Assembly: GCA_964428845.1 (NCBI GenBank)
Contig: CAYRZH010000005.1
Coordinates: 1,647 to 65,646 of the forward strand
Reading direction: 5' to 3'
Length of the DNA: 64,000 nucleotides
DNA from: an uncultured Candidatus Saccharibacteria bacterium
GTDB taxonomy: Bacteria; Patescibacteriota; Minisyncoccia; Phycocordibacterales; DATGWK01
Position 1 is the stretch's first letter; every line of letters starts with the position of its first letter. Shown here piece after piece: positions 1,009 through 25,166 of the stretch. The notes below the pieces were generated by a model. The model saw only the letters and a list, made by a program, of their open reading frames with translations, ran no database searches and was not told the origin of the DNA. Position numbers and translations under genes: made by a program.

Positions 1009-2304
1009 ATGGCTCAAATCTACCTCAAAAAGCTTAAAAAGGCCCATTTTATAGGTATTGGGGGCATTGGCATGTCTGCCGTGGCTCGTATGTTCCTGCT
1101 ACAGGGCAAAAGTGTCTCGGGTTCTGATCTGTCGGATTCCCCAATAATAGAAGAGCTTTCGGGGCTTGGAGCAAAAATAAAGATAGGGGAGGGAAAGAAG
1201 AATTTACCAGAAGACACCCAGTTGGTTGTGTACACCGTTGCCATCCCTCCAAAGAACCCAGAGTTAAAAAAATCCCTGGAGAAAAAAATCCCAACGCTAT
1301 CATACCCACAAGTACTCGGTCTCATTTCGAAGGAAAAATTTACTATTGCTGTTAGTGGGACTCATGGCAAGACAACGACTACGGCAATGATCGCGACTGC
1401 AATGATCGATGCTGGTCTTGATCCGACGGTCGTGGTCGGGAGCTTGCTTAAAGACCAAAAAAGCAACTTTATCGCTGGCAAAAGTGGCTATTTTGTCGTT
1501 GAGGCCTGTGAATACAAGAGATCATTTCTAGAACTTAGCCCAAGCATCCTCGTGATCACTAATATCGATGATGACCACCTGGATTATTACGGCAACATTG
1601 CTGGGGTACAAAAAGGTTTCAAAGAGCTGGCTGAAAAACTCAAAGAAAACGATTTTTTGGTTTGTAACCCCAGAGATCCAAATGTAAGACCGATCCTGCG
1701 GGATCTTTCCTGTGCTATTTTTGACTACACTTCAACGAAAAAAAATTTTGAATTAAAGATTCCCGGGAAGCATAACGTGGAAAATGCACAAGCCGCATTG
1801 AATACTTTGAGAATTCTTGGTGTGCCAGAAAAACAAGCCATCGCATCACTTGAGCGCTTCAGTGGTACGTGGAGGAGATTTGAATACAAGGGGAAAACGA
1901 CTGGGGAAGCAGTAGTCTATGACGACTATGCGCATCACCCGACGGAGATAAAAGCAACTCTCGCCGGGGCCCGAGAGCTTTTCCCAAAGAAAAATATTGT
2001 TGTTGTCTTTCAGCCACATCTTTATAGTAGAACAAAAGAACATCGAGATGAGTTTGCTCCAGCTTTTAAGCAAGCCGACTCGGTGATTTTTGCTCCGATT
2101 TATGCTGCCCGCGAGCCTATGGATAAAAGTATTTCGTCAGAGATTCTTGCGAAGGCAATGCGTAAGTCGAAGGGAAAGGCGGTGGCACTTCAAGATTTTG
2201 AGACAATTATCAAGTTCCTCAAAGGGTCTCTAAAATCCGGAGACATCCTTATAACTATGGGTGCCGGAGATATAAATAAAGTAGCTGAAGCCATGGTACA
2301 ATAA
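1009..2304 (+). CDS. murC: UDP-N-acetylmuramate--L-alanine ligase (MurC)
   Basis: N-terminal HFIGIGGIGMSAVARMFLLQG, P-loop GTHGKTTTTAMIA and Mur ligase C-terminal domain. SD-like site 12 nt after the murD stop. Confidence 0.85.
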   Translation: MAQIYLKKLKKAHFIGIGGIGMSAVARMFLLQGKSVSGSDLSDSPIIEELSGLGAKIKIGEGKKNLPEDTQLVVYTVAIPPKNPELKKSLEKKIPTLSYPQVLGLISKEKFTIAVSGTHGKTTTTAMIATAMIDAGLDPTVVVGSLLKDQKSNFIAGKSGYFVVEACEYKRSFLELSPSILVITNIDDDHLDYYGNIAGVQKGFKELAEKLKENDFLVCNPRDPNVRPILRDLSCAIFDYTSTKKNFELKIPGKHNVENAQAALNTLRILGVPEKQAIASLERFSGTWRRFEYKGKTTGEAVVYDDYAHHPTEIKATLAGARELFPKKNIVVVFQPHLYSRTKEHRDEFAPAFKQADSVIFAPIYAAREPMDKSISSEILAKAMRKSKGKAVALQDFETIIKFLKGSLKSGDILITMGAGDINKVAEAMVQ

Positions 2305-2329
2305 TTTCTCTAATATCCTAGCGAATCTA

Positions 2330-2917
2330 ATGGATCCGGCCGCATTACAATACTTTGAGAGCTTGTCCTATTTTGGGATTTTTTTTGCTATTGCTTTAAG
2401 CGGCCATGTCATTCCTATGCCGGAAGAGGTGATACTACTGATCGTCGGTTTTATCGCTGCAAGCGGGATTGTCAAACTCCCTCTGGCCATACTGGTTTCT
2501 GTCATTGGTATTCTCGTCGCTGATATTGGCTTCTATTTTCTAAGTGCCGAGGGGGCAAAGCTCGCAGTTCATTTTAAAAGTAAAATAAAAACAGATATTT
2601 TTGATTGGTATGCAAGCCATATGAAGGAGCGTACGTTTCTTGTGATGTTCTTATCACGTTTTGTGCCAGTCCTACGAGTTGTAAGCCCACTTGTCGCTGG
2701 GGCGGTGAGGATAAATCCTCCAAGATTTATTTTATTTAGCTTCCTCTCGGCTCTGGTATATGTTCCAATCATTGTACTCATAGGGTTCTTTTTCCAATCA
2801 AAAATCACGCCACTTATAAGTGCCGCACAGACGACTCGCCATTTTCTTTTTCTCGGACTTCTTGTCGTAACTGGAGTTGCGGTCGCATTGGTAGCAAAGA
2901 AAAAGTTTTTTACTTGA
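2330..2917 (+). CDS. DedA/SNARE-associated (TVP38/TMEM64) family membrane protein
   Basis: Polytopic 195-aa protein with a DedA-like core (VILLIVGFIAASG...FLSRFVPVLRVVSPLVAG). Confidence 0.55.
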   Translation: MDPAALQYFESLSYFGIFFAIALSGHVIPMPEEVILLIVGFIAASGIVKLPLAILVSVIGILVADIGFYFLSAEGAKLAVHFKSKIKTDIFDWYASHMKERTFLVMFLSRFVPVLRVVSPLVAGAVRINPPRFILFSFLSALVYVPIIVLIGFFFQSKITPLISAAQTTRHFLFLGLLVVTGVAVALVAKKKFFT

Positions 2918-2918
2918 T

Positions 2919-3176
2919 TTGCTATGGTATACTCTTGCCATGATCACGAAAAATAGACTCATCCTCATCCTTGGTATCTGGATTGCTCTGATTCCTTTCC
3001 TCGGTTTTCCAAGTTCGTATAAGTCTTTTTTTGTTGTGGCTTCTGGTATCGCTGTGGCGGTTGTGTCGTTTCTGCATGCTCGTGACAGGTACCGCGCACA
3101 GATGCTTTCTTCAGGACAAGATGACAAGAAGGAAATTTTATCAGAAACATTTACAGAAAATAGTTTAAAATCTTAA
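2919..3176 (+). CDS. Small hypothetical membrane protein (85 aa, 2 TM)
   Basis: ORF abuts the DedA stop and has two hydrophobic helices. No recognisable family. Confidence 0.3.
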   Translation: MLWYTLAMITKNRLILILGIWIALIPFLGFPSSYKSFFVVASGIAVAVVSFLHARDRYRAQMLSSGQDDKKEILSETFTENSLKS

Positions 3177-3199
3177 GTTCCTTCTCTAATCCGAAGATA

Positions 3200-4468
3200 A
3201 TGTCACGGCGGCCTTCCACCTACAAATACGCGACAGCAGGAATTTTTTGTATTGGGACGTTATCATTCCTCTATTTTTTTGTGCCGGTAGCTTTTCCTTC
3301 AGAATATTATTTGGCGAGCGGGATCAAACAACTAAAAATTTCCAAAAACGAATCTAGTCCACAAACACGCCAAGAGCCAGTTTTTGTTGTCACACATCTG
3401 AAGACTCCAGTGCCGCTCAAAGCGATCTACATGACTCAATGTGTAGCTGGCCTGAAGAGTTTTAGAAATGATCTAGCGAAGATTGCTGAAACTACAGAAA
3501 TAAATTCTATAGTTATCGATATCAAGGACTACAGTGGCCGTATTTCTTTTCCAACAGAAAATCCAATGCTTAAGCCTGCTGTGGCAGAAAACTGTCGAGC
3601 CACTGACATGAAAGAATTTATCGGGTCTCTTCATGATAAAAACATCTATGTGATTGGACGAATAACTGTTTTTCAAGATCCCTTTATGACCGCGGCACAC
3701 CCAGAGCGGGCAGTGCATAAGCTATCGGATGGAGGAGTTTGGAAGGATTTTAAGGGTTTGAGTTTTATTGATGTTGGTTCAAAAGAGCATTGGGATTACA
3801 TTGTCGAACTTTCTAAGGAGTCGTACGCAGTTGGTTTTGATGAGCTTAATTTTGATTACATACGTTATCCGTCTGATGGAAATATGAAGGATACTGCCTT
3901 CATGCTCCCGACCGGGAAGACAAAACCACAAATGCTCAAAGAATTTTTTGCATATTTGGAAAGTAAAATCCGCCCTACTGGTGCAGTACTTTCGGCCGAT
4001 CTTTTCGGAATGACAACCACGAACTCGGATGACTTAAATATCGGACAAATTCTTGAACATGCTTTGGAACATTTCGACTACGTAGCACCAATGGTATATC
4101 CATCGCATTATCCACCGACTTTCAATGGTTATGGTGATCCCAACAAATATCCATATGAAGTGGTGAAATATTCTATGGATAAGGCGGTTGAAAAGGCCCA
4201 GGCTTTTGACTTATCACGTTCGCAGATGGCCACGGCAGCAGCAGTAAATAACCAAAACCTAAATCCAATCACCACAGCGGACGCCTCTTTAGGAAATTCG
4301 GCAAAGAAACTACGCCCCTGGCTTCAAGATTTCGACTATGGTGGTAACTATGACATTGCTGAAGTGCGAGCGCAGATAAAGGCGACATATGACGCGGGAC
4401 TCGACTCGTGGATGCTATGGAGCCCGAGCAATAGGTATACTCTGGGGGCATTAGAGAGAGAAATTTAA
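3200..4468 (+). CDS. Putative glycoside-hydrolase-like protein (DUF4015/GHL-type TIM barrel) with N-terminal TM anchor
   Basis: N-terminal hydrophobic segment followed by motifs typical of the DUF4015 family (INSIVIDIKDYSG..., FDELNFDYIRYP). Family assignment is from memory and not searched. Confidence 0.4.
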   Translation: MSRRPSTYKYATAGIFCIGTLSFLYFFVPVAFPSEYYLASGIKQLKISKNESSPQTRQEPVFVVTHLKTPVPLKAIYMTQCVAGLKSFRNDLAKIAETTEINSIVIDIKDYSGRISFPTENPMLKPAVAENCRATDMKEFIGSLHDKNIYVIGRITVFQDPFMTAAHPERAVHKLSDGGVWKDFKGLSFIDVGSKEHWDYIVELSKESYAVGFDELNFDYIRYPSDGNMKDTAFMLPTGKTKPQMLKEFFAYLESKIRPTGAVLSADLFGMTTTNSDDLNIGQILEHALEHFDYVAPMVYPSHYPPTFNGYGDPNKYPYEVVKYSMDKAVEKAQAFDLSRSQMATAAAVNNQNLNPITTADASLGNSAKKLRPWLQDFDYGGNYDIAEVRAQIKATYDAGLDSWMLWSPSNRYTLGALEREI

Positions 4469-4482
4469 ATTTGCGCTTGGTC

Positions 4483-4511
4483 TTGACACATACCAATGAT
4501 GAGTGTAGAAT
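4483..4511 (+). promoter_or_regulatory. Sigma70-type promoter TTGACA-17-TAGAAT driving GC-rich cassette 1
   Basis: TTGACA at 4483-4488, a 17-nt spacer and TAGAAT at 4506-4511, 15 nt after the upstream stop codon. Confidence 0.45.
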
Positions 4512-4679
4512 GCGGCGAGTATACAAAGCAGTTCTTTGGCGTAACCTTGTTGGTGGTCATAGCCAAAAGATGCTGATAAAAACTTTAATAGTTCGGCATT
4601 TTCTGGCTATGACTACCAGTGTGGTATGTCCTCTGGCAAAATCAAAACTGGCGAAAGCCTTGAGAAAGGGAAAAGCGCC

Positions 4680-5291
4680 ATGCACAAGCAAACTGCAGAG
4701 TTGATTGGCCGGATCGCCCAGAATCTTCCGGACATGGATGGAGACATCATGCAGGGCTGGATCAACAACCCCCGTGGTCTCCAGGGGGCTCTTAGATTGG
4801 CCCTCTGCCAACCAAAAGCCGGATCTGTTCCGAAGGAGGAAACTCCTCTCGACACCATCATCCGTGTCGATCGCACCATCCGTCCTGCCTACCCAAGCTG
4901 GGCAACGGAGGTGATGCACCCCGAACTGGAGACTGTTGGGCCTGCCGAGTACGACCTTGCCAAACGAATCAATCTCTGGTTCCACAACGCCCAGATAGTC
5001 GAAGGGCGATCGATGGGCACTGTCATCTACGGATTTCTGAAGGCAACCGATGGTCTGAAAACATGTCTCGGCCTTCACGGCGCAGTGGAGATTCAGCAGA
5101 AGGGCATCGTCGTTTTCCGAAAACTCTTCGGAGGTAGGGCAGTGTTCTGCTGGAAGTCGGTCGTTCGCGACCGCGATGGCAGCCTCCTCGTTCCGTACGT
5201 CTATGACGACGGTGTCAGTGTTGTGGTGCGCTGGCGCTGGCTCGGCCATGACTGGGTCTCCGACGGCCCTGCGGCTCGCTTCGTAAGTTGA
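4680..5291 (+). CDS. Hypothetical protein encoded in GC-rich cassette 1 (203 aa from ATG 4680; alternative start ATG 4626 gives 221 aa)
   Basis: ORF in a ~60% G+C stretch, with GAAAGGG SD-like site 9 nt upstream of ATG 4680 and on the same strand as the promoter and terminator. The competing antisense ORF 4557-5537(-) overlaps the next gene and looks like an antisense artefact. No family recognised. Confidence 0.4.
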   Translation: MHKQTAELIGRIAQNLPDMDGDIMQGWINNPRGLQGALRLALCQPKAGSVPKEETPLDTIIRVDRTIRPAYPSWATEVMHPELETVGPAEYDLAKRINLWFHNAQIVEGRSMGTVIYGFLKATDGLKTCLGLHGAVEIQQKGIVVFRKLFGGRAVFCWKSVVRDRDGSLLVPYVYDDGVSVVVRWRWLGHDWVSDGPAARFVS

Positions 5292-5392
5292 CACTTGGGA
5301 CTTAGTCCCTCGGGTCTTCTGGACCTCTTGATCTTTGTCCTTTGTATCGCGGCCATTTGCCGCAACGTACTCCAAAACGGTAACAATGGAAG

Positions 5393-5421
5393 CCTCGGGC
5401 AACAATGCTCGGGGTTTTTTT
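5393..5421 (+). terminator. Putative intrinsic terminator of cassette 1 (7-bp stem with 2 G-U pairs, 8-nt loop, T7)
   Basis: CCTCGGG-caacaatg-CTCGGGG followed by TTTTTTT. A second T-run follows at 5441-5447. Confidence 0.3.
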
Positions 5422-5461
5422 GTGAGCTGCCTGTCCACCGCTTTTTTTGTCTCAATTTTCC

Positions 5462-5470
5462 TGGTATAAT
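5462..5470 (+). promoter_or_regulatory. Extended -10 element (TGgTATAAT) for the VirD4-like gene
   Basis: tggtataat 20 nt upstream of ATG 5491. Confidence 0.3.
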
Positions 5471-5490
5471 TTCGCCAAAGCACATTTTCT

Positions 5491-7419
5491 ATGGACAACG
5501 ATCGCATCACATATTTCGCAGAGACCGACTCGCGCAATAAGCGAGTAGCATTTGGTATAAAATCAAAAGACCGATCTCGCCACGTCTACGTCATAGGTAA
5601 GACAGGTATGGGTAAATCCACCCTTCTTGAGAATATGGCTGTCCAAGACATCCAAAATGGGGAAGGCATGGCTTTCATAGATCCACACGGCAAGACTGCC
5701 GAGCTCCTACTTGAATACGTACCACAAGATCGCATGAAAGATGTGGTATATTTCGCGCCTTTTGACACCGAATACCCGATTTCCTTCAACGTCATGGAGG
5801 ATGTTGGTCCCAACAAACGCCATTTGGTTGCAAACGGTCTCATGAGTGCATTCAAAAAGATTTGGGTCGATGCTTGGTCGGCCCGCATGGAGTACATTTT
5901 GAATAATATTTTACTCGCTCTTCTCGAGTACCCAGATTCGACCCTGATCGGTGTAAATAGAATGCTAGCCGATAAAGACTATCGCAAGAAGGTCGTCGAC
6001 AATATCACCGATCCGTCGGTAAAAGCTTTTTGGACAGACGAGTTCGCAAAGTATGGCGATCGATATATGCAAGAAGCGGGAGCGGCAATTCAAAATAAAA
6101 TTGGGCAGTTTATCGCTAACCCTTTGGTGCGTAATATCATCGGCCAACCAAAATCGAGTTTCGATCTGCGAAAGATGATGGATGAAAACAAGATAATGAT
6201 CGTCAATCTCTCCAAGGGTCGCGTGGGCGAGGCCAACGCCAATCTCTTGGGTAGTATGCTCATCACAAAGATCTATCTGGCGGCCATGTCTCGTGCTGAT
6301 ACAAGTGAGAGTAAACTCAAGTCTCTTCCACAGTTCTATCTTTATGTCGACGAATTTCAGTCTTTTGCCAACGAATCTTTCGCCGACATTCTTTCGGAGG
6401 CTAGAAAATACAAGTTGAATCTAACCATGGCTCATCAATATATCGAGCAAATGTCGGAAGAAGTTCGAGCGGCAGTGTTTGGTAACGTCGGTACCATGAT
6501 CGTTTTCCGAGTGGGCGCTTACGACGCCGAAGTCCTCGAGAAGGAATTTGCCCCCACCTTTAGTGTAGAAGATCTGGTCAATCTGGGGTTTGTACAGATA
6601 TATCTTAAACTTATGATCGACGGCGTGACGTCTCCACCTTTTTCGGCAACCACACTGCCGCCGATCGATAAACCAGACATTTCATTCAGAGACGATATCA
6701 TAGAAAACTCAAGAAAAACCTTTGCTTCTCCAAGGAGTGAAGTGGAAGAGCAAATCAAAAAATGGCACGAGCCAGTAACTTCTATACGAAGAGATGATAG
6801 ACCAAGGCCGCCGCAAGGGACTGTAGAGTTTTCGCCGCGTCCGCAAACCCAAGCGCCGTCGTCTATGCCATCCCAACTGCCTCAACAACCGTCCCAACCG
6901 CAACCTGTTTCGAAGGTGTCACAACCACCACAACCCTCACAACCACCGCCTGCACCGCAACCTCCGCAACAAACTCCGCCACCTCCAAGACCTCCAGAGC
7001 CGCCCAGATCTATCCAGCCCACTTCTCCTCAACGGCCCCTTCAACAATCACCGCAGCCGCCGAGACCGGATTCCCATCGAGATCAACTTCCGCATCAGGC
7101 TCGACCAGTTTCTCTAGACACGCTCAAAAAAGATAAAGGACCAAGTGGTAAAAATCTTTCAGAGTTGAAAAACGCCCTTAGGGATTTGGTAGAACAGACA
7201 AAACAGCACAGCGAAAAAAAGGATGAGGGGCAGGAAGGGAAACACAACAACAAACCTCAAGAAAAACCGGCGATAGGGAATGGAAATCATAAATCCCAAG
7301 TCAAAGATAATCCTAAGCCTTCAAAAGATTCACCGCCACAAAGTCACCCCCCTCAAAAAGAAAAACCTCGGGAAGTTCCAGAAGATGTACTCCGCAAAGT
7401 CATCAACGGATCAAAGTAA
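5491..7419 (+). CDS. VirD4/TraG/TraD-like type IV secretion coupling ATPase with long C-terminal Pro/Gln-rich low-complexity tail
   Basis: Walker A VIGKTGMGKSTLLENM and Walker B-like YLYVDEFQSF. The N-terminal ITYFAETDSRNKR matches the CPR 'T4SS DNA-binding domain' protein family. The last ~210 aa are PQPSQP-type repeats. Confidence 0.6.
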   Translation: MDNDRITYFAETDSRNKRVAFGIKSKDRSRHVYVIGKTGMGKSTLLENMAVQDIQNGEGMAFIDPHGKTAELLLEYVPQDRMKDVVYFAPFDTEYPISFNVMEDVGPNKRHLVANGLMSAFKKIWVDAWSARMEYILNNILLALLEYPDSTLIGVNRMLADKDYRKKVVDNITDPSVKAFWTDEFAKYGDRYMQEAGAAIQNKIGQFIANPLVRNIIGQPKSSFDLRKMMDENKIMIVNLSKGRVGEANANLLGSMLITKIYLAAMSRADTSESKLKSLPQFYLYVDEFQSFANESFADILSEARKYKLNLTMAHQYIEQMSEEVRAAVFGNVGTMIVFRVGAYDAEVLEKEFAPTFSVEDLVNLGFVQIYLKLMIDGVTSPPFSATTLPPIDKPDISFRDDIIENSRKTFASPRSEVEEQIKKWHEPVTSIRRDDRPRPPQGTVEFSPRPQTQAPSSMPSQLPQQPSQPQPVSKVSQPPQPSQPPPAPQPPQQTPPPPRPPEPPRSIQPTSPQRPLQQSPQPPRPDSHRDQLPHQARPVSLDTLKKDKGPSGKNLSELKNALRDLVEQTKQHSEKKDEGQEGKHNNKPQEKPAIGNGNHKSQVKDNPKPSKDSPPQSHPPQKEKPREVPEDVLRKVINGSK

Positions 7420-7483
7420 AGTTAGCGGAAACTTTGTAACTCGTTTATACTCGATCTGATTGTAGTAGGATACCCGCACAGGC

Positions 7484-8677
7484 ATGAAAAAGAGAATTCT
7501 CATATTTTCCCTAGCATTTAAGCCATTTTTGGGTGGTGCTGAAATCGCTATAAAAGAGATTACCGATAGGATTTCGCCTACCGAATTGGAGTTTGACATG
7601 ATTACCCTTCGCTTCGATAGCAATCTGCCGAAGTTCGAGCGGGTAGGAAATATAAATGTGTATCGGATCGGTTTCTCAAAGAAATCTCCAACGATGACTG
7701 ATCTTGTGAAATTTCCGATGTATCTAAATAAAGTATTCTTTCCGGTCACCGCTTTTTTTAAAGCTCGGACTCTCGATCGAAAACAGAACTACAACGCGCT
7801 CTGGTGCATGATGTCTTATACAGGTTTTCCAGCTCTCTTCCTAAATTGGTTTGGGCGCCGAATTCCGATCATACTCACTCTACAAGAAGGTGATTCGATT
7901 TCTCATATTACCAAGCGTCTCCGGATTAGAATAGTCTTCCCACTTTATCGAGCCATTTTTAAAAAGGCTTCGGTGGTGCAAGCGATTTCAACATTTCTTG
8001 GAAGATTTGCCAGGGATATGGGGTTTCGTGGGCGTATCGAGATAATACCAAATGCGGTAGATACGAAACTCTTTTCAGAAAGAATCTCCGATAAAGACTT
8101 ATCGGACCTGAAGCAGAAAATGGATAAAAAAGACGGAGATGTTTTTCTCATCACCACATCTCGACTTGTGCCCAAGAACGCAGTTGGAGATGTGATCGAT
8201 TCTCTGAAACATCTCCCAGAAAACTATAAGTTTATTATTCTTGGTATCGGACCCCTTGAGAACTCACTAAAATCAAAAACTGATATGTTACATCTCAACC
8301 ACAGAGTGAGGTTTCTTGGTGAAGTCGAACATAAAATAATCCCCACATATCTTCAAGTATCAGACATCTTTATCCGCCCCTCACTCTCTGAAGGTATGGG
8401 GAATTCTTTCATAGAAGCTATGGCGGCTGGCATCCCAGTGGTGGGTACTGCTGTCGGTGGTATCACAGATTTTCTAAAAGACCGGTCGACTGGGGTTGTC
8501 TGTAAAGTAGGTGATTCTGTGGATATTGCCCAGAAGATAAAACTGCTTGTCGAGAACTCTTCTCTTCGAGAAAAAGTTATAAAAGAAGCCCGAGCTCTCG
8601 CCTTTGAAAAATACGACTGGAATCTCATCTCTAAAGAAATGAAAGAGAGGGTTTTTCAAAAGGCATTTTTTTGCTAA
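7484..8677 (+). CDS. Glycosyltransferase family 4 (GT-B, retaining)
   Basis: C-terminal EX7E region EGMGNSFIEAMAAGIPVVGTAVGGITDFL. Confidence 0.75.
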   Translation: MKKRILIFSLAFKPFLGGAEIAIKEITDRISPTELEFDMITLRFDSNLPKFERVGNINVYRIGFSKKSPTMTDLVKFPMYLNKVFFPVTAFFKARTLDRKQNYNALWCMMSYTGFPALFLNWFGRRIPIILTLQEGDSISHITKRLRIRIVFPLYRAIFKKASVVQAISTFLGRFARDMGFRGRIEIIPNAVDTKLFSERISDKDLSDLKQKMDKKDGDVFLITTSRLVPKNAVGDVIDSLKHLPENYKFIILGIGPLENSLKSKTDMLHLNHRVRFLGEVEHKIIPTYLQVSDIFIRPSLSEGMGNSFIEAMAAGIPVVGTAVGGITDFLKDRSTGVVCKVGDSVDIAQKIKLLVENSSLREKVIKEARALAFEKYDWNLISKEMKERVFQKAFFC

Positions 8678-8695
8678 ATTTAAGGTTATATTCAC

Positions 8696-9844
8696 ATGAA
8701 AGTCTTAATCTGCACGGGGATATTTCCACCCGAAATCGGTGGGCCGGCTACCTACGCCGGCCTTTTGGCGCAAGAGCTACCGAAACGTGGTTTTAGTGTC
8801 GAAATCTTCCCATTTCGGGAGGTTCGCGGTTACCCGCGGGGTATAAGGCATTTGATGTATTTCTTTGGGGTTTTTAGGCGAGGTTTTTTTGCCGATGTTA
8901 TTTTTACTCAAGATCCGGTTAGTACGGGTGTGCCAGTGGTTTGTGCCGCTTTCTTGATACGTAAAAGAGTCGTGTTGCGTGTGGCTGGAGACTATGCCTG
9001 GGAACAGGCACGCCAGCACTTTGCCGTTACTGATTCTATCGATGAATTTCAAAACAAGAAATATTCTTTTTTTGTAGAGCTTTTAAGAAAGTTGCAGACT
9101 TTTTCTGTGCGTTATTCTCATAGAGTAATAACTCCGAGCAATTATTTCAACAAGGTTGTCAGTAGTTGGCTTTGGGGCGGAGTAGAAGATATCGCGCGTA
9201 AAAATATCAGGGACAAAAATATCACCACAATTTACAACGGTATTGATATTCATGAAAACTTCAAGAAAGAATCAAAATTTTCTCAAAAAACGATTATAAG
9301 TGCCGGTAGACTGGTACCATGGAAAGGATTCGACGTGCTTATCGAAGCTTTGAGTAAAATGCCAGACTGGCAGCTCCTCATCGCCGGTGAGGGTCCTGAC
9401 AAGGGTAGACTTGTGGAAATTGTGTCGAAGCACAAGCTCGAGGATAGGGTAAATTTTTTGGGGAAGCTCGACCGCGCAGATTTGTTTTCTAAAATATATC
9501 GATCACATGTGTTTGCTCTGCTGTCTACTTTTGAGAGCTTTTCGTTTCAGGTTGTCGAAGCTATGTTTGTGGGGACTCCTGTTATCGCCGCCAAGATCGG
9601 CAATCTAGGGGAGATAATCGAAAACGAGGTGAATGGAATTCTTCTCGAGCCAAGAGATATCGATAGCTTCATAAGATACTCTAAAAAAATTGTTGAGGAT
9701 GATTCGTACAGAGGGAAAATTATTAATGCTGCATCTATACGCGCGGCCGACTTCTCCATCGACAAAACTATAGATCAACTTTCCAAAGTGCTACAAGAAA
9801 GCGGTAGGAGAAAAGATGGGAAAAGTATAGAGAAATCAAAATGA
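8696..9844 (+). CDS. Glycosyltransferase family 4
   Basis: FESFSFQVVEAMFVGTPVIAAKIGNLGEII motif and GT-B N-terminal domain (MKVLICTGIFPPEIGGPATY). Confidence 0.75.
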   Translation: MKVLICTGIFPPEIGGPATYAGLLAQELPKRGFSVEIFPFREVRGYPRGIRHLMYFFGVFRRGFFADVIFTQDPVSTGVPVVCAAFLIRKRVVLRVAGDYAWEQARQHFAVTDSIDEFQNKKYSFFVELLRKLQTFSVRYSHRVITPSNYFNKVVSSWLWGGVEDIARKNIRDKNITTIYNGIDIHENFKKESKFSQKTIISAGRLVPWKGFDVLIEALSKMPDWQLLIAGEGPDKGRLVEIVSKHKLEDRVNFLGKLDRADLFSKIYRSHVFALLSTFESFSFQVVEAMFVGTPVIAAKIGNLGEIIENEVNGILLEPRDIDSFIRYSKKIVEDDSYRGKIINAASIRAADFSIDKTIDQLSKVLQESGRRKDGKSIEKSK

Positions 9845-11001
9845 AAGTCTTAAGTATAAGTACAGATAGAAATATTTTTAAGAAAGACAGTGCTGTACGG
9901 GCGCGAATGATAAAGTACGGAACACTTTTTGATGAGTTACATATCGTTGTTTTTACCAAAAATAGTCAGCCTGCAGAAACCGAGAAAATCTCCGGAAACA
10001 TCTGGGTTTACCCCACGAAATCATGGACCAAATGGCTATTCTTGAAAGATGCCAAAAGGATCGGTTCCAGTATTATAAAGACTCATAAATTTGAAAAAAC
10101 TAAGGACGTGGTGACTGTTCAGGATCCATTTGAGACTGGGCTGGTTGGATTGAAGCTTAAGAGAAACTTTAACTTACCTCTGCATGTGCAGATCCACACC
10201 GATTTTCTAAACCCATATTTTAAAACTCATTCACTTTCAAACTGGGTCAGGGTAATGATGGCGCAGAGAGTCATATCAAAAGCCGATGGCACGCGAGTGG
10301 TTTCAGAACGCATTAGATTTTCTTTAGAAAGAAGTAATCTTACACAAAAACCGATAATGGTATTGCCGGTATTTGTCGATATTGCAAAGTTCGAGGGGGC
10401 GGCAGGTAGCCATACCTCCGGTTCAAACCTAAAAGAAAAATATCCCCAATTTAACTTTATCATTCTCATGGCTTCACGTCTGACTACCGAGAAAAATATA
10501 CCTCTGGCGTTTGGAGTTATGCAGAAGCTTGTGGAAAAGTATCCTCGCGCAGGGCTGGTCGTAGTGGGAGAAGGGCCTCTGAAAAAATATTTACTGAATC
10601 TTACAAAAAAGCTCAATATCCACAAAAATGTAGTCTTTGAGAACTGGCAAAACGATCTTACTAATTACTACAGAACCGCCAATATATTTTTGTCGACCTC
10701 ACAGTATGAAGGATATGGTCTCTCTATGGTTGAAGCTACTGCTTCTCACTGTCTCGTCGTAGCGACTGATGCTGGAGTTGCTCCCGAGCTCTTGGGAAAC
10801 CAGGAAGGGTCGCTCGTTTGTCCGGTCGGGGATGCGAACTGTCTTTCCGAGAAGATAGAAAAACTTATTTCGGACACAGGTCTCCGAGAAAGCCTTGTTC
10901 ATGAAGCTTTTGGTAAACTTGACCGGGTCGTCGTGAGGAGTGAGAGTGGCTACTTAAAAAGTTACAAGGAAAGTATAATGAATGCCTTACAGAAAGAGTA
11001 A
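9841..11001 (+). CDS. Glycosyltransferase family 4
   Basis: YEGYGLSMVEATASHCLVVATDAGVAPELL motif. Overlaps the upstream gene by 4 nt (ATGA). Confidence 0.7.
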   Translation: MKVLSISTDRNIFKKDSAVRARMIKYGTLFDELHIVVFTKNSQPAETEKISGNIWVYPTKSWTKWLFLKDAKRIGSSIIKTHKFEKTKDVVTVQDPFETGLVGLKLKRNFNLPLHVQIHTDFLNPYFKTHSLSNWVRVMMAQRVISKADGTRVVSERIRFSLERSNLTQKPIMVLPVFVDIAKFEGAAGSHTSGSNLKEKYPQFNFIILMASRLTTEKNIPLAFGVMQKLVEKYPRAGLVVVGEGPLKKYLLNLTKKLNIHKNVVFENWQNDLTNYYRTANIFLSTSQYEGYGLSMVEATASHCLVVATDAGVAPELLGNQEGSLVCPVGDANCLSEKIEKLISDTGLRESLVHEAFGKLDRVVVRSESGYLKSYKESIMNALQKE

Positions 11002-12515
11002 TGAAAAAATTACTGATTATTACTCAAAAGATAGACAAAAGGGACAGTATCCTGGGCTTTTTTCATCGTTGGGTGGAGGAGTTTGCCACCAAGTTTGAGA
11101 AAATAACAGTTATTTGTCTTGAAAAAGGGGATGTTCATTTGCCTCCAAATGTAACGGTTCTTTCTCTTGGTAAAGAGAATGGTCGATCGAGAATAAAATA
11201 CTTAGTAAATTTCTATAGACATCTGTGGTTCGAGAAGGATAATTACGATGTTGTTTTTGTGCATATGAATGAAGAATACGTTCTTCTTGGGGGCGTCTTG
11301 TGGCATCTTCTCGGCAAAAAAGTCAGCATGTGGCGCAATCATCCGATAGGAGATTTAAAAACGAGAATTGCCGTTCTTCTTTGTAACAAGGTATTTGCTA
11401 CGTCCAAATATTCCTATACTGCTGGGTTTGGAAAAACAAAAATTATGCCAGTGGGTGTCGATACATCTACTTTCAGATTGCTCGGAAGCCAGGCTACTGC
11501 AGAAGATAGGAAACCTCGGTCGATACTTTTTCTTGCCCGCATTTCTCCGATCAAAAGACCCGACGTTCTCATCGATGCCCTGAAACTGCTTCGGAAATGG
11601 GGGAAAAAATTTAGTGCCTCGATCTACGGTGATCCTCTGCCAGAAGATCTGGAATATTACCAGGCCTTGAAAGATGAAGTCACCAAAAGTGGTCTCGGAG
11701 AATTGGTTGGTTTTTCTGCAGCAGTCCCAAATGATCAAACGGTATCCATATACAATAACCATGAAATTTTTGTGAACTTGAGTCCTAGTGGAATGTATGA
11801 CAAGACAATTTTCGAAGCGGCTCTTTGCGGAGCTCTAGTTCTCAATTCGAACGAAAATTTGGCAGGGAAGATAGATTCTAGGTTGCTCTTTAAAGAAGGT
11901 TCGGTCGAAGATTTGGCCCAAAAACTTAAGACTCTCTTGGATTTGAACGACCTTCAGAAAAAAGAACTGAAGGAACAGCTAAATGCTTATGCGCATAGCG
12001 AACATTCTCTATTTGCTCTGGCGGGTCGACTCCAAAAAGAGTTGGATTTTAAACAAACCCTAATAGGGAAAATGATTAGTTTAGTTTTTCATAATCGTCT
12101 GTTTGTCAGATATCAGAAACTTTATAGGTATCTAGTTTCTGGCGGTACTTCGGCGTTTGTTGATCTGGGGTTCTTGTTTTTTTTCACCTCTGTCCTAGAG
12201 ATCTGGTACCTAGCGTCATCGGTTCTGGCGTTCATAATCGCCGTTGGGGTTAGTTTCGTGATGCAGAAATTCTGGACTTTCAGGGACCATTCGACCGAAG
12301 GCTGGAAAGCTCAAGCGGGCCTATACCTAGCCATTATTTCGACCAATAACCTCGGCCTAAACACCATTCTTATGTATGTATTTGTGGATCATCTCCACAT
12401 CCACTATTTTCTCTCCCAGTTTGTCATAAGTGGTCTTATTGCGATTGAGAGTTATTTTGTATACCAAATTTTTGTTTTTAGGAAAAAAGGACACCAAAGG
12501 AACCATGCCCAATAA
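11001..12515 (+). CDS. GT4-like glycosyltransferase fused to a C-terminal GtrA-like 4-TM domain
   Basis: The N-terminal ~350 aa are GT-B-like (...MYDKTIFEAALCGALVLNS...). The C-terminal ~140 aa carry the GtrA signature (YLVSGGTSAFVDLGFLFF...VSFVMQKFWTFRD). Confidence 0.55.
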   Translation: MKKLLIITQKIDKRDSILGFFHRWVEEFATKFEKITVICLEKGDVHLPPNVTVLSLGKENGRSRIKYLVNFYRHLWFEKDNYDVVFVHMNEEYVLLGGVLWHLLGKKVSMWRNHPIGDLKTRIAVLLCNKVFATSKYSYTAGFGKTKIMPVGVDTSTFRLLGSQATAEDRKPRSILFLARISPIKRPDVLIDALKLLRKWGKKFSASIYGDPLPEDLEYYQALKDEVTKSGLGELVGFSAAVPNDQTVSIYNNHEIFVNLSPSGMYDKTIFEAALCGALVLNSNENLAGKIDSRLLFKEGSVEDLAQKLKTLLDLNDLQKKELKEQLNAYAHSEHSLFALAGRLQKELDFKQTLIGKMISLVFHNRLFVRYQKLYRYLVSGGTSAFVDLGFLFFFTSVLEIWYLASSVLAFIIAVGVSFVMQKFWTFRDHSTEGWKAQAGLYLAIISTNNLGLNTILMYVFVDHLHIHYFLSQFVISGLIAIESYFVYQIFVFRKKGHQRNHAQ

Positions 12516-20240: not shown

Positions 20241-20798
20241 ATGAAATTGCTTGATGAAGCTATCCTTTTTGCGGGCTCCCGAAGAGGGGCTCCGCTAAGT
20301 GATCTCGAGGTCACGCTCCTCGTCCTACTCATGGACAGGGTCAGGTGGCCGGTGCCGCAGCAGGTCTTCGAGGCCTGGGAGGGGAACTTCTACAACTGCG
20401 CTGTCGAGCTGGGTATCGGGAGGCCTGGGGAGGAAGAAGTCTTTCTCGTTCGCCGACCGAACACCGATCGGTATTACCCCGGTCAGTGGCATATGCCGGG
20501 GAAGGTCATTCTGCCGGGGATGAATATCCAAACCACTCTGGCGGCTCTCATTGACAATGAACTTGGTGGTGTGGATCTCGGACATATGACTCGGATCGAT
20601 ACATTCGAATTCTCGAAGGTTGATCGTCCGCGTGGTCAAGGTGTCTGTTTCCTGTTCCACGCTTCTGTGGATGTTGCGACCGCGGAACTGCTTCCCAACG
20701 GCCAGTTCTTCCCGGTTGACCAACTGCCGGAACCAATGATCGGCCACCACATCCCCATGATCAGAAGGCTGTTCTACGGTCGAGGCATCTCGCTCTAG
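20241..20798 (+). CDS. Nudix-fold protein with a degenerate Nudix box (GC-rich cassette 2)
   Basis: PGQWHMPGKVILPGMNIQTTLAALIDNELGGV occupies the Nudix box (GX5EX7REUXEEXGU) but most catalytic Glu/Arg residues are replaced. About 60-65% G+C. Confidence 0.5.
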   Translation: MKLLDEAILFAGSRRGAPLSDLEVTLLVLLMDRVRWPVPQQVFEAWEGNFYNCAVELGIGRPGEEEVFLVRRPNTDRYYPGQWHMPGKVILPGMNIQTTLAALIDNELGGVDLGHMTRIDTFEFSKVDRPRGQGVCFLFHASVDVATAELLPNGQFFPVDQLPEPMIGHHIPMIRRLFYGRGISL

Positions 20799-20814: not shown

Positions 20815-20853
20815 CCCCCCGACCGCGCATGCGCGGTCGGGGGTTATTTTTTT
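20815..20853 (+). terminator. Strong rho-independent terminator (12-bp GC stem, CATG loop, T9)
   Basis: CCCCCGACCGCG-catg-CGCGGTCGGGGG followed by TTATTTTTTT. The T-run supplies the last codons and stop of the convergent DegT-like gene. Confidence 0.7.
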
Positions 20854-21941
20854 AGAAACAAACTTATTTGCTCACAAACATAGTCCACCTCTTCATCCTT
20901 TAGATATGGGTGTATTGGGAGGGATAAGATGTGATTTACTTTTTCCTCTACCACAGGGAGATTTAGTGAATTGTATTCAGCAAAACATTTCTGTTTATGA
21001 ATCGGAATAGGGTAGTGAATGAGGGTGCCTATCTCTTTTTCTTTGAGAAACGATTGGAGTCCGTCGCGATTTTCTGCTTCTATTACAAACAAATGATTTA
21101 CATGCCCCACATCTTTTCTAAGACCGGGCAATATAATCCCCCGAACACTCTGTAGACCTTCCAAATACTTCTCGGCTATTCTCACTCGGCGCTCATTGTT
21201 TTGATCCAACGTTTTTAGTTTTTCCGACAAAATTGTCGCTTGTAATTCGTCGAGTCGGCTATTTATACCGCGGACCTCATGCTCGTATCTGTTTTTCTGC
21301 CCATAATTGCGTAAAGAAATACATTTTTCTGCGAGTGAAGCATCATTTGTGGTTATAAGTCCTCCGTCGCCGACTCCGCCTAAGTTTTTTGTCGGATAAA
21401 AACTAAAACAGCCAAAAACTCCAAATGATCCGACTTTTTTACCTTTAAACTCTGCTCCGTGTGCTTGAGCGCAATCTTCTACCATATGCAGGTTATGTTT
21501 TTTTGATATATCCAATAAAGAGTCCATGTCTGCGGGCTGACCATACAAGTGGACAGGAATAATGGCGCGTGTTCTTGAAGTTATCTTTTCTTCTATCTTT
21601 TTGACATCAATGTGGTAGAAATCATCAATATCGACAAAAACAGGTATTGCTCCTACTGCCGATATGGAGAGTGCCGTCGCGACTGCTGAAAGGGGTGTGG
21701 TGATGACTTCATCACCGGGACCAATCCCAAGAGCAAGAAGAGCAATCTGGAGAGCTTCCAACCCGTTAGCAACGCCAACTGCATGTTTTGTGTCGATGTA
21801 CCCGGCAAAATCTGTCTCAAACTTTTTAACCTCTGGACCAAGCACATAATGTCCAGATTCAAAAACCCTCTGCATTGCCGCGAGGATATCCCTTTTTTCT
21901 TCAGCGCTTTGGCCGTTTAGTATATTGAATGAAATCTTCAT
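20844..21941 (-). CDS. DegT/DnrJ/EryC1/StrS-family PLP-dependent sugar aminotransferase
   Basis: Start taken at MKISFNILNG (ATG rc at 21939-21941). Conserved region ...VLGPEVKKFETDFAGYI... and PLP-lysine context (FSFYPTKNLG). Confidence 0.75.
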   Translation of the reverse strand: MKISFNILNGQSAEEKRDILAAMQRVFESGHYVLGPEVKKFETDFAGYIDTKHAVGVANGLEALQIALLALGIGPGDEVITTPLSAVATALSISAVGAIPVFVDIDDFYHIDVKKIEEKITSRTRAIIPVHLYGQPADMDSLLDISKKHNLHMVEDCAQAHGAEFKGKKVGSFGVFGCFSFYPTKNLGGVGDGGLITTNDASLAEKCISLRNYGQKNRYEHEVRGINSRLDELQATILSEKLKTLDQNNERRVRIAEKYLEGLQSVRGIILPGLRKDVGHVNHLFVIEAENRDGLQSFLKEKEIGTLIHYPIPIHKQKCFAEYNSLNLPVVEEKVNHILSLPIHPYLKDEEVDYVCEQISLFLKK

Positions 21942-22326
21942 AATTTCTAATGTAATCTTTCTCGTCGTATTCTTGGTCGGCCAAAACCAGGAGGGAAGTC
22001 CCTGGCTTAAAGCTGTGCATGACGTGCCATACATACGGGAAAAGCCACAGTCCTTCGTTATTTTTGTTTAATACGACGCTCGTTTTGTTTTTTCCGTCGT
22101 CGAGATCTACTATGCATTCTCCCGTGGTGCAGATCAAGATTTGGTTTGTGAGGTGGTGGGTGTGACCTCCGCGCTTATCGGCGTCTTTCATGCCAGTAAT
22201 AGAAAGCACCTTCTTTATTGGGAAAGGTATACTACCTTCTTTTGCCGGTTGGTCTGCTTGAAGCATACAGAGAGTGCCATTTTTAGTATCGAAGGAAGGG
22301 AATTGTATCAGTTTAAGGGGGGGCAT
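21901..22326 (-). CDS. WxcM/FdtA-like cupin, probable dTDP-4-keto-6-deoxyhexose 3,4-ketoisomerase
   Basis: 141-aa cupin with ...KRGGHTHHLTNQILICTTGEC... and LWLFPYVWHVMHSF motifs. Confidence 0.55.
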   Translation of the reverse strand: MPPLKLIQFPSFDTKNGTLCMLQADQPAKEGSIPFPIKKVLSITGMKDADKRGGHTHHLTNQILICTTGECIVDLDDGKNKTSVVLNKNNEGLWLFPYVWHVMHSFKPGTSLLVLADQEYDEKDYIRNYEDFIQYTKRPKR

Positions 22327-24416: not shown

Positions 24417-25103
24417 TCACCGGCCGACAGGCTTCCATCCACCGCGCACATCGGCGAAGGATGGGCGATGAGGATCGAGAACCCATTGGAGCAGGTAACA
24501 GTTGTGGTCGACGATTCGCGGGTCCCCTCGCCTCACTTCATCCGGGGTGAAGATTGTCCACTCACCCTCGAAACCCTCCACGTCCACCACAGAGACCTTC
24601 CTGCGGTGCATGATTGTCGCGCAAGCGCAACGTCTTTCGGGTTCGTCGTGGATCGTCACACCGAGGAACTGGATACCCGGTCTCATGGGGAGGAGATCAT
24701 CTCCGGCGTCACGGAAATCCCTTTCCAGGGCGCTTGCTGGCGTATCGAATCTTCGGATAACTGTGCACGGGCTGTGGTACAGCCCGGCCCACGCGTCGCC
24801 GACCTCGGTCGCCGGATCGCGAAGCTTCAGGGCAAATCCCAGAAACTCGTTACCCTTCCACACTTCATGAACGATCTGAACCGAAGCGCAGAATCCTGCC
24901 ATGCCGACGAGAAGTTCGAAGACCTCTTTCGGCACGCCGCCCATCGTTGTACTCCTGCTTCCATGCCGGGCCCGTTCGGTCAGCTCTGCGATGTGGGAGA
25001 TGATTGGGGCGAGCTCCACGAGCGGAATGTCCCTGATCATCCCCAGGGCACTAAGCGCCAGGGACTGGTGAGAGCTGTCTCGCGTCTGCGCAATCGTCTT
25101 CAT
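24417..25103 (-). CDS. Hypothetical protein, 228 aa (GC-rich cassette 3)
   Basis: ORF in ~57% G+C DNA, flanked on the same strand by a perfect consensus promoter and a terminator. AAAGAAAGGG SD-like site before the ATG. No family recognised. Confidence 0.5.
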   Translation of the reverse strand: MKTIAQTRDSSHQSLALSALGMIRDIPLVELAPIISHIAELTERARHGSRSTTMGGVPKEVFELLVGMAGFCASVQIVHEVWKGNEFLGFALKLRDPATEVGDAWAGLYHSPCTVIRRFDTPASALERDFRDAGDDLLPMRPGIQFLGVTIHDEPERRCACATIMHRRKVSVVDVEGFEGEWTIFTPDEVRRGDPRIVDHNCYLLQWVLDPHRPSFADVRGGWKPVGR

Positions 25104-25166
25104 GGCAACCCTTTCTTTGGTTGGTTGTGTTCGGGGCGAAAACCACGGGAACTCCTATCTTCCTGT

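What the first reader, a model, noticed from the sequence alone, without database searches (positions are those of the whole stretch)
4470..5445. Cassette 1: orphan ~200-aa protein behind a TTGACA-17-TAGAAT promoter with a long leader
The promoter starts 15 nt after the upstream stop. A ~110-165-nt leader of intermediate G+C precedes the CDS, and its length leaves room for a structured regulatory RNA. Two candidate starts exist (4626 and 4680). The ORF lies in ~60% G+C DNA and encodes a Trp/Arg-rich protein I cannot place (MHKQTAELIGRIAQNLPDMDGDIMQGWINNPRGLQGALRLAL...).
Basis: seen in the sequence. Interest (0 to 1): 0.55.

Follow-up and report, generated by a model that had tools for sequence, protein, structure and literature searches.

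The report
Stand-alone DGR hypervariable-protein gene cassette
The "orphan" gene belongs to a large family of proteins from ultra-small (CPR) bacteria whose C-terminal ends are rewritten by a reverse-transcriptase diversification system (a DGR); this copy sits alone, without that machinery nearby, behind a conserved promoter and an undescribed conserved RNA hairpin.

Summary
ORF 4680-5291 (+) belongs to a CPR/Patescibacteria family of at least 1,312 clusters at 50% identity, with no Pfam model. In 23 of 50 informative homologous loci the gene is followed by a template repeat, an Avd gene and a reverse transcriptase. Template/variable-repeat mismatches there fall almost only on template adenines, so this family is the variable protein of diversity-generating retroelements (DGRs).

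The window's last ~126 nt (5163-5288) are the variable repeat. They differ from the family template consensus preferentially at adenine columns (p = 5e-5). The 64-kb window holds no RT, Avd or template repeat, so this is a stand-alone target. It is either diversified in trans or a fixed relic, and I cannot tell which.

The promoter (4483-4511) and a 66-nt leader hairpin (4551-4618) are conserved in 30 loci. The hairpin shows strong covariation and is not in Rfam. ATG 4680 is the start. A conserved 3' flank and a terminator close a ~950-nt unit.

The high G+C is a family trait, not a mark of recent transfer. The antisense ORF is spurious, yet it is the public gene call.

Verdict: new member of a known kind, with a possibly new leader RNA motif.

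The parts
4483..4511 (+). Sigma-70-type promoter, TTGACA-17-TAGAAT; TSS inferred near 4518.
   Evidence: 11/12. It is one of three sites scoring >=11/12 in 64 kb. The best promoter-like site 13-51 nt (mostly 15-38) upstream of the hairpin scores 9-12 of 12 in all 30 family loci, 10 or more in 28 of them. Transcription itself was not tested.
4530..4549 (+). Conserved 5'-proximal leader motif AGTTCTTTGG...AACCTTG (family consensus GTTCTTTGAtannCTACTTGC).
   Evidence: Seen in the upstream alignments. Function unknown.
4551..4618 (+). Conserved leader hairpin. The lower stem GGTGGTCATAGCCA/TGGCTATGACTACC is sequence-conserved and the upper stem covaries. The covariance-model hit spans 4542-4628.
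   Evidence: 26-nt arms; 91.9% paired, 11/24 pairs compensatory, 0/500 shuffles, slid controls 31-46%. CM R1 scores 71.5 bits here, hits once per locus, and adds 11 loci outside the training set; 55 G.U against 14 A.C cells, which favours the sense strand and hence RNA. No Rfam family matches.
4650..4679 (+). Conserved motif next to the start codon, GGCGAAAGCC..GAGAAAGGGAAAAGCGCC. It contains the Shine-Dalgarno sequence; the GGCG/CGCC ends can pair.
   Evidence: Invariant columns. The pattern is found only in the window's subfamily (0.02 expected by chance). The indels are not multiples of three, so the region is non-coding.
4680..5291 (+). CDS, 203 aa plus stop: a DGR variable-protein family member. 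It has an N-terminal three-helix module (about 4680-4830) and a conserved 152-aa C-terminal domain (4833-5288).
   Evidence: Homologues. Start codon. Sense-frame selection: (differences at codon positions 1/2/3 = 30/26/73). AF2 models: pLDDT 87.9 for the full protein and 95.7 for the domain.
5163..5288 (+). Variable repeat (VR), equivalent to the ~126-nt template repeats of homologous DGRs. It encodes ...VVRDRDGSLLVPYVYDDGVSVVVRWRWLGHDWVSDGPAARFVS.
   Evidence: It aligns with TR/VR pairs of L001, L004 and L078. Against the consensus of 26 TRs the window is substituted at 17 of 29 adenine columns and at 11 of 68 conserved non-adenine columns (Fisher p = 5.5e-5). By my own codon-by-codon reading of the alignment against the L004 TR, window codons at TR AAC positions are all NNY. 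No cognate TR lies in the window.
5292..5365 (+). Conserved 3' flank: CTTnG-type repeats and short inverted repeats (5297-5309 GGGAC/GTCCC; 5312-5326 GGTC/GACC). Candidate DGR target-recognition element or 3'-UTR element.
   Evidence: Conserved in both DGR-linked and stand-alone loci and absent from the TR flanks. RNAalifold finds no consensus structure, so a structural role is inferred only by analogy to Guo et al. 2011 (PMC3240598).
5390..5421 (+). Intrinsic terminator: a 12-bp stem, an ACAA loop and a U7 tail.
   Evidence: Equivalent terminators follow the 3' flank in other loci.
4557..5537 (-). Antisense stop-free ORF (326 aa from TTG; publicly called as 308 aa from GTG at 5483). Spurious.
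   Evidence: The longest antisense stop-free stretch ranges from 80 to 342 aa across 18 loci. Substitutions are mostly non-synonymous in that frame: 10 synonymous against 84 non-synonymous, compared with 47/47 in the sense frame. No Pfam match. The public call P0348 is a singleton.

Best explanation
The region 4483-5421 is a monocistronic cassette encoding a variable (target) protein of a diversity-generating retroelement.

Shown:
- It belongs to a large CPR protein family.
- In about half of its loci that family sits directly upstream of TR, Avd (minus strand) and RT, with adenine-specific TR-to-VR differences.
- Population variation in the family is confined to the C-terminal ~42 residues.
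- The window copy keeps every cis feature shared by the family: a near-consensus promoter, the conserved leader hairpin, the VR scaffold with substitutions concentrated at template-adenine positions, the conserved 3' flank and a terminator.
- The 64 kb contain no RT, Avd or TR.

Inferred mechanism:
- A DGR elsewhere in the genome transcribes its TR.
- The RT-Avd complex makes adenine-mutagenised cDNA.
- That cDNA replaces VR 5163-5288 by retrohoming, guided by the G+C-rich 3' end of the VR and the conserved 3' flank.
- This rewrites about a dozen NNY codons on the surface of a small soluble binding protein.
- The strong promoter and the leader hairpin, an mRNA-level structure, set the gene's expression by controlling stability, processing or translation.

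The protein is under purifying selection and functional whether or not diversification is still going on.
For: DGR linkage of the family:
- Context look-ups show bAvd and RVT_1 next to homologues.
- tblastn finds an RT within 3 kb in 23 of 50 informative loci.
- TR/VR pairs have mismatches at TR adenines in 20/20, 18/18, 23/24 and 23/23 cases, among others.

Hypervariation:
- Within 90%-identity clusters P0001 and P0044, differences are confined to discrete VR positions.

Trans targeting exists in the family:
- The VR of L045 matches the TR of L031, on another contig of the same MAG, with 4 mismatches, 3 of them at adenines.
- Stand-alone L068, L063 and L003 differ from the L078 TR at adenines in 18/23, 16/20 and 19/23 mismatches.
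- L067, L053 and L056 keep a TR without Avd or RT.

The window copy:
- It is 66-70% identical to the closest cluster.
- Substitutions are enriched at adenine columns, p = 5.5e-5.
- Promoter, hairpin and 3' flank are conserved.
- The ORF is intact and shows a sense-frame substitution pattern.
- The unit shared between the DGR-linked L078 and the stand-alone L068 is 940 nt, from the promoter to about 160 nt past the stop, which matches the window cassette.
Against: No RT, Avd or TR lies anywhere in the 64 kb, and the rest of the genome could not be searched. Current diversification of this copy is therefore unproven.

Against the closest available TR (L078) the window has 17 non-adenine mismatches as well as 20 at adenines. 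This fits a divergent cognate TR, but it fits drift after loss of the DGR equally well.

The 3'-terminal motif reads CGTAA where the family consensus is CGCAA. L063 shares this variant.

The downstream inverted repeats are short (4-5 bp, T-rich loops). They are unlike the 7-10-bp G+C-rich GRNA-loop hairpins of phage DGR targets, and no consensus structure was found.

The fold could not be assigned to the C-type-lectin class used by known DGR variable proteins.
Confidence: 0.6

Rival explanations
1. Relic target. The genome has lost its DGR, or this copy has escaped it. The gene now encodes a fixed-sequence binding protein that keeps the family's promoter, leader and 3' flank by inheritance and by selection on expression only.
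For: No RT, Avd or TR in 64 kb. 27 of 50 informative loci lack an RT within up to 10 kb. The window VR has many non-adenine differences from the closest known TR (17 of 37). It also has a T in the otherwise conserved CGCAA 3' motif.
Against: Stand-alone relatives L068, L063 and L003 differ from the L078 TR mainly at its adenine positions, so lack of a nearby RT does not imply inactivity. The 3' flank, which serves no obvious protein-coding purpose, is still conserved in the window. Remote and non-adjacent DGR targets are documented (Wu et al. 2018, PMC5758913), and metagenome surveys cannot see them (Roux et al. 2021, PMC8144416).
Confidence: 0.35
2. One reading: an unplaceable orphan protein on a recently acquired high-G+C island, controlled by a riboswitch-like leader.
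For: No Pfam, PDB-sequence or Foldseek match. G+C z-score of 4.1. A structured, conserved leader. The gene sits at a site that is empty in L065 and holds a different ORF in the syntenic L063.
Against: More than 1,300 family clusters exist, with a clear DGR association. High G+C is a family-wide trait: the domain averages 0.57 against flanks of 0.45 in 51 loci, in hosts of 0.29-0.62, while the linked RT genes are more A+T-rich than their flanks. Divergence from the L063 homologue (64%) is in the range of neighbouring housekeeping proteins (54-77%), which argues against recent transfer. The hairpin is a simple stem-loop with no ligand-pocket-like conserved junction, and no Rfam riboswitch matches.
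Confidence: 0.03
3. The expressed product is the antisense 308/326-aa ORF, as in the public gene call.
For: It is the longest ORF at the locus. The public protein collection holds it (P0348) and does not hold the sense product.
Against: P0348 is a singleton cluster with no Pfam match. The longest antisense stop-free stretch ranges from 80 to 342 aa in homologous loci. Substitutions concentrate at sense codon position 3, with 47 synonymous codon changes in the sense frame against 10 in the antisense register. Promoter, Shine-Dalgarno sequence and terminator all serve the + strand.
Confidence: 0.01

Closest known systems
Diversity-generating retroelement variable proteins of CPR bacteria (Paul et al. 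2017, not readable here; CPR set and 'UVR1-6'/ungrouped VR classes of Wu et al. 2018, PMC5758913; DGR clade 2 of Roux et al. 2021, PMC8144416)
   Same: A small protein with a C-terminal ~42-residue VR. Homologues lie next to TR, Avd and RT with adenine-specific mutagenesis. No transmembrane or known domain, as reported for CPR targets. An N-terminal module that varies between members, as Roux et al. describe.
   Different: This copy has no DGR within 64 kb. [quoted passage not shown] Here 27 of 50 informative loci of one CPR family are stand-alone or keep only a TR. I could not determine which published VR class the family corresponds to, because the supplements are not held.
Bordetella phage BPP-1 Mtd / DGR target-site architecture (Guo et al. 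2011, PMC3240598)
   Same: The VR is at the 3' end of the gene. VR/TR homology ends near the stop codon. A conserved element immediately downstream of the VR is absent from the TR flank and contains inverted repeats.
   Different: The inverted repeats here are 4-5 bp with T-rich loops, not 7-10-bp G+C-rich stems with GRNA loops. No consensus structure was detected. There is no detectable sequence or Foldseek similarity to Mtd or other C-type-lectin-fold variable proteins. The conserved 5' leader hairpin has no counterpart in BPP-1, where sequences upstream of the VR are dispensable.
Remote or non-adjacent DGR targets (Treponema denticola, Legionella; Wu et al. 2018)
   Same: A target gene lies far from any RT. 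Within the family, a VR matches a TR on another contig of the same genome.
   Different: For the window itself the cognate TR and RT were not found, so trans targeting is inferred and not shown.
Structured 5'-UTR stem-loops that stabilise or regulate bacterial mRNAs (e.g. the ompA 5' hairpin; recalled from general knowledge, not tested)
   Same: A long, conserved, sense-strand-specific hairpin lies between a strong promoter and the ribosome-binding site.
   Different: It starts about 30 nt from the inferred 5' end rather than at it. It is tied to one functional class of genes: DGR targets of at least two different VR-domain families. No Rfam family matches.

Membership tests
DGR variable (target) protein gene | Homology to proteins whose genes carry a VR paired with a nearby TR that differs almost only at TR adenines. 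| tested here: met
   More than 25 homologous loci have TR/VR pairs in which at least 75% of mismatches, and usually 90-100%, fall at TR adenines.
DGR variable (target) protein gene | This copy's own VR is paired with a cognate TR (A-to-N differences only). | tested here: not met
   No repeat of 5163-5288 occurs anywhere in the 64 kb. Indirect support only: substitutions relative to the family TR consensus are enriched at adenine columns (17/29 against 11/68, p = 5.5e-5).
DGR variable (target) protein gene | A DGR-type reverse transcriptase and an accessory Avd gene in the vicinity. | tested here: not met
   tblastn with two CPR DGR RTs and three Avds against the window gave nothing below E = 0.2. 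The RT queries find an RT in 23 of the 50 informative loci.
DGR variable (target) protein gene | Hypervariation confined to the VR among closely related sequences. | tested here: inconclusive
   Met for the closest cluster (P0001 and members) and for P0044. Not testable for the window's own population, because its exact protein is absent from the collection.
DGR variable (target) protein gene | A target-recognition element (IMH-like G+C-rich end, plus an inverted repeat downstream of the VR). | tested here: inconclusive
   The G+C-rich VR 3' end and about 75 nt of downstream flank are conserved in linked and stand-alone loci, including the window. Short inverted repeats are present, but RNAalifold finds no consensus structure.
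C-type-lectin-fold DGR variable proteins (Mtd, TvpA, AvpA, TaqVP) | The VR is displayed on a C-type-lectin fold detectable by structure comparison. | tested here: inconclusive
Any Rfam cis-regulatory RNA (riboswitch, leader, thermometer) | A covariance-model match at or above the gathering score. | tested here: not met
   No gathering-level hit in the window. At E <= 10 only microRNA-precursor models match, which means a generic long hairpin.
Any Pfam / PDB-sequence protein family | A significant profile match. | tested here: not met

The most novel reading that the evidence does not exclude
The promoter, 5' motif and leader hairpin, together with the conserved 3' flank, form a portable 'target cassette' specific to CPR DGRs. 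The hairpin also precedes a second, unrelated VR-domain family in L045. On this reading the hairpin is not only an expression element. It would mark transcripts or loci for the DGR machinery, or couple target transcription to retrohoming. That would let one RT/TR service dispersed targets, and would explain why ~950-nt cassettes recur at unrelated genomic sites with higher identity than their flanks. The family's constant ~57% G+C in hosts of 29-62% G+C would then reflect a constraint imposed by the retroelement and not by the host.
Probability: 0.15. Interest if true: 0.75.

Novelty: new member of a known kind. Interest (0 to 1): 0.5.

Why it matters
DGRs are the only known prokaryotic system of targeted protein hypervariation, and CPR bacteria are among the taxa most enriched in them. 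Yet their targets are described only as unannotated hypotheticals.

This locus contributes four things:
- It gives a name and an anatomy to a family of more than 1,300 clusters that has no Pfam model and no Foldseek-detectable structural relative, despite a very confident model.
- It shows that about half of the family's genes stand alone. Surveys anchored on the RT therefore miss them, and gene callers can even choose the wrong strand, as happened here.
- It reveals a conserved, covarying leader hairpin and a conserved 3' flank shared by linked and stand-alone targets. These are testable candidates for expression control or target recognition in a DGR lineage that has never been studied experimentally.
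- It shows that the high G+C, which looks like foreign DNA, is an intrinsic family trait.

None of this changes the known DGR mechanism.

Tried and rejected
- Rfam scans of the leader and of the whole window gave only microRNA-like chance hits. There are no tRNAs.
- Pfam on the protein and on 31 family members, and a PDB sequence profile search, gave nothing.
- The window has no paralogue, no copy of the hairpin and no TR.
- Exact look-ups of the window's target protein and of its neighbour failed to return contigs. The source genome beyond the window could therefore not be reached. The genome is not among the GTDB representatives scanned.
- The metagenome scan gave only 9 loci.
- RNAalifold on the 3' flank found no structure. 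I did not pursue a hand-built structural alignment, so the downstream-hairpin idea remains unproven.
- I tested whether the other G+C-rich, strong-promoter cassette (24417-25103, minus strand) is a second DGR target. It is a different conserved CPR family with evenly spread conservation and no VR-like pattern.
- An IS200/IS605-like or integron-cassette reading, prompted by the hairpins, was considered and dropped. There is no transposase or integrase signature. The hairpin lies upstream of the gene inside the transcript, and it is sense-strand biased.
- Paul et al. 2017 and the Wu et al. supplements are not held.

Full report
**Observation.**

The sequence features are as described. TTGACA-17-TAGAAT lies at 4483-4511, and its -35 hexamer starts 15 nt after the stop codon of the upstream DUF4015 gene. 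Only three sites in the 64 kb reach 11 of 12 consensus positions, against a simulated mean of 1.1.

ORF 4626/4680-5291 is open. Its G+C is 0.577 against a window mean of 0.424 (z = 4.1). Seven of 1,268 sliding windows are as high or higher, five in the 24.2-24.7 kb island and two overlapping this gene. The leader folds much better than shuffled sequence (z = -5.1) because of a 26-bp-arm hairpin at 4551-4618. An intrinsic terminator lies at 5390-5421.

**Not an orphan.**

A search of 5.8 billion proteins gave 193+ homologues with E-values down to 1e-83, all unnamed. The few that carry a source name come from CPR/Patescibacteria lineages such as Moranbacteria, Kerfeldbacteria and Taylorbacteria; the related genome loci add Saccharibacteria and Nomurabacteria. 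A profile search of 1.84 billion cluster representatives gave 1,312 clusters at E <= 1e-3 and 915 at E <= 1e-10.

The family has a variable N-terminal ~50-70 residues and a conserved ~150-residue C-terminal domain. It has no Pfam or PDB-sequence match.

**What the family is.**

Genomic contexts of homologues show a bAvd gene on the opposite strand and an RVT_1 reverse transcriptase about 0.9 kb downstream. The last ~125 nt of the gene are repeated roughly 310-410 nt after the stop. The differences between the two copies fall almost exclusively on adenines of the downstream copy: 20/20, 18/18, 23/24 and 23/23. This is the signature of a diversity-generating retroelement (DGR). The gene is its variable protein, its 3' end is the variable repeat (VR), and the downstream copy is the template repeat (TR).

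Within 90%-identity clusters, sequence differences are confined to discrete positions in the C-terminal ~42 residues. By my own comparison of those alignments with the TR consensus, the variable positions coincide with adenine-containing TR codons.

Of 50 informative loci, 23 have an RT within 3 kb and 27 have none in up to 10 kb on each side. Three of the 27 keep only a TR.

**The window copy.**

tblastn with CPR DGR RTs and Avds finds nothing in the window. Self-comparison finds no TR-like repeat. The copy is therefore stand-alone.

Its 3' end (5163-5288) aligns with TRs and VRs of relatives. Against a consensus of 26 TRs it is substituted at 17 of 29 adenine columns but at only 11 of 68 conserved non-adenine columns (Fisher p = 5.5e-5). 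By my own codon-by-codon reading against the L004 TR, its codons at TR AAC positions are all NNY. The VR therefore carries the footprint of adenine mutagenesis.

Whether that is still happening cannot be decided.
- For activity: stand-alone relatives L068, L063 and L003 differ from the TR of the linked relative L078 mainly at its adenines (18/23, 16/20, 19/23). One stand-alone VR matches a TR on another contig of the same MAG.
- Against: the window has 17 non-adenine mismatches to the closest TR available and a variant 3' motif. This fits either a divergent cognate TR or drift after loss.

**Start codon and strand.**

The closest homologues begin at the position of ATG 4680. The sequence upstream of it is conserved, but with indels that are not multiples of three and, in L063, apparent in-frame stops (read by eye from the alignment). 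It is therefore non-coding. It contains a motif specific to the subfamily, GGCGAAAnCC...AGAAAGGAAAAAnCGCC-ATG.

The antisense ORF is an artefact of G+C-rich coding DNA.
- The longest antisense stop-free stretch ranges from 80 to 342 aa among homologous loci.
- Between the window and L068, differences at sense codon positions 1/2/3 are 30/26/73. There are 47 synonymous codon changes in the sense frame against 10 in the antisense register.

The public protein collection nevertheless holds the antisense product (P0348, 308 aa, a singleton from the 67,890-bp NCBI contig) and not the sense protein, while the neighbouring genes are present. This helps explain why the gene looks like an orphan.

**Leader.**

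The promoter and leader are conserved far beyond the window's subfamily. In 30 loci a promoter-like site scoring 9-12 of 12 (10 or more in 28) lies 13-51 nt (mostly 15-38) upstream of the element. It is followed by a GTTCTTTGAtannCTACTTGC motif and the hairpin.

In a MAFFT alignment of 19 loci the proposed 24-pair helix is 91.9% paired. Eleven pairs show changes on both sides, no shuffle of 500 reaches the observed values, and slid controls pair at 31-46%. The lower stem is conserved in sequence and the upper stem covaries.

G.U pairs outnumber A.C cells 55 to 14. Pairing is therefore 91.9% on the sense strand and 82.9% on the other strand, which favours an RNA structure in the mRNA.

A covariance model finds the element on the + strand once per locus in 954 kb, in each case upstream of the DGR-target gene, as far as I compared coordinates. 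It adds 11 loci that were not used to build it. The element occurs in both DGR-linked and stand-alone loci. In L045 it also precedes a second target with an unrelated VR domain. No Rfam family matches. Its function was not tested. I infer control of mRNA stability, processing or translation.

**3' flank.**

About 75 nt after the stop are conserved across linked and stand-alone loci. They carry CTTnG-type repeats and short inverted repeats, followed by a terminator. This sequence is absent from the TR flanks.

In phage BPP-1 a hairpin just downstream of the VR is required for retrohoming (Guo et al. 2011, PMC3240598). Here the repeats are shorter, and RNAalifold finds no consensus structure. 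A target-recognition role is therefore only an analogy.

**Cassette and composition.**

The DGR-linked L078 and the stand-alone L068 share 940 nt at 90% identity, from the promoter to about 160 nt past the stop, and nothing else of note. L068 and L003 share the cassette at 84% while their syntenic flanks are about 64% identical.

In the window the cassette lies between DUF4015 and a type IV coupling-protein-like ATPase. That site is empty in L065 and holds a different ORF in the syntenic L063, where the family gene sits elsewhere. Housekeeping proteins of the window and L063 are 54-77% identical, compared with 64% for the target protein. No recent transfer need be invoked.

Across 51 loci the conserved domain averages 0.57 G+C against 0.45 for the flanks, in hosts from 0.29 to 0.62. 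Linked RT genes average 0.40, which is below their flanks. The anomaly is thus a family trait, and it is unexplained.

**Fold.**

AlphaFold2 gives pLDDT 87.9 for the full protein and 95.7 (pTM 0.88) for the C-terminal domain. The VR forms the C-terminal beta-hairpins.

**Literature.**

CPR DGRs and their unannotated targets are known (Wu et al. 2018; Roux et al. 2021). Wu et al. state that CPR DGRs tend to have single adjacent targets and that remote targets occur in another lineage. Roux et al. note that their method cannot see remote targets. I found no description of the leader hairpin, but Paul et al. 2017 could not be read.

**Verdict.**

This is a real, functional gene of a known kind, a DGR variable protein, in a stand-alone configuration. 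It carries a well-supported and apparently undescribed conserved leader RNA hairpin. Confidence is about 0.97 that it belongs to the DGR-target family, and about 0.6 that it is still diversified in trans.

Noticed in passing
window 24417-25199 (minus strand): The highest-G+C island in the window (0.60) holds a 228-aa ORF behind a perfect TTGACA-17-TATAAT promoter at 25195 (minus strand). It belongs to another conserved CPR family with no Pfam match (16 homologues; named sources include Lloydbacteria and Berkelbacteria). Conservation is evenly spread and there is no VR-like pattern. The public call is a shorter 175-aa version (P0326).
   Followed up: partly
window 56740-57821 (minus strand): This is the third of only three sigma-70 sites scoring >=11/12 in the window (57752, minus strand). 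It precedes a moderately G+C-rich ORF that looks like a multi-pass membrane protein, with no Pfam hit.
   Followed up: no
window 4557-5483 (minus strand): The public protein collection holds the antisense 308-aa ORF (P0348, a singleton) for this locus instead of the DGR-target protein. This looks like a gene-calling error caused by G+C-rich coding DNA.
   Followed up: yes
L045 1257-2027: A second DGR target gene (211 aa) has a different VR domain (...LLYAYRDGDGRWLGACYDRPGNGWVRGHGFAFVV...) but carries the same leader hairpin. Its N-terminal motif resembles that of some members of the studied family. The leader and N-terminal modules therefore seem to be shared between target families.
   Followed up: partly
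L067 7653-7776; L053 1185-1310; L056 6257-6365: A template repeat lies next to the target gene, but no Avd or RT is detectable within the sequence available downstream (about 3.5 to 10 kb). These look like split or partly decayed DGRs.
   Followed up: partly
51 family loci: The target gene keeps about 57% G+C (GC3 about 0.70) in hosts of 29-62% G+C, including outside the VR. The adjacent RT gene is more A+T-rich than its flanks. No explanation was found.
   Followed up: partly
P0184 (792 aa), P0185 (658 aa): The top hits of the representative search carry 3-4 tandem copies of the family domain. They could be fusions, tandem targets or merged gene calls.
   Followed up: no
window 6800-7100: The C-terminal part of the type IV coupling-protein-like ATPase (5491-7419) is a Pro/Gln-rich low-complexity tract with G+C 0.60 and strong negative GC skew. 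This tract is not aligned with the L063 orthologue.
   Followed up: no
window 20816-20843 and 30088-30130: A perfect 28-nt palindrome lies between the convergent NUDIX ORF (20241-20798, also G+C-rich) and the gene at 20844-22034, and is probably a bidirectional terminator. A second, imperfect 43-nt palindrome lies at 30088-30130.
   Followed up: no
window 1009-12515: The surrounding genes are cell-envelope functions: a Mur-ligase-family gene (three Mur ligase Pfam domains), a DedA/VTT protein, a DUF4015 glycosyl-hydrolase-like protein, a type IV coupling-protein-like ATPase, three or four GT4 glycosyltransferases and a GtrA fusion. The order is syntenic with L063. The window has no tRNA or rRNA genes.
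   Followed up: partly
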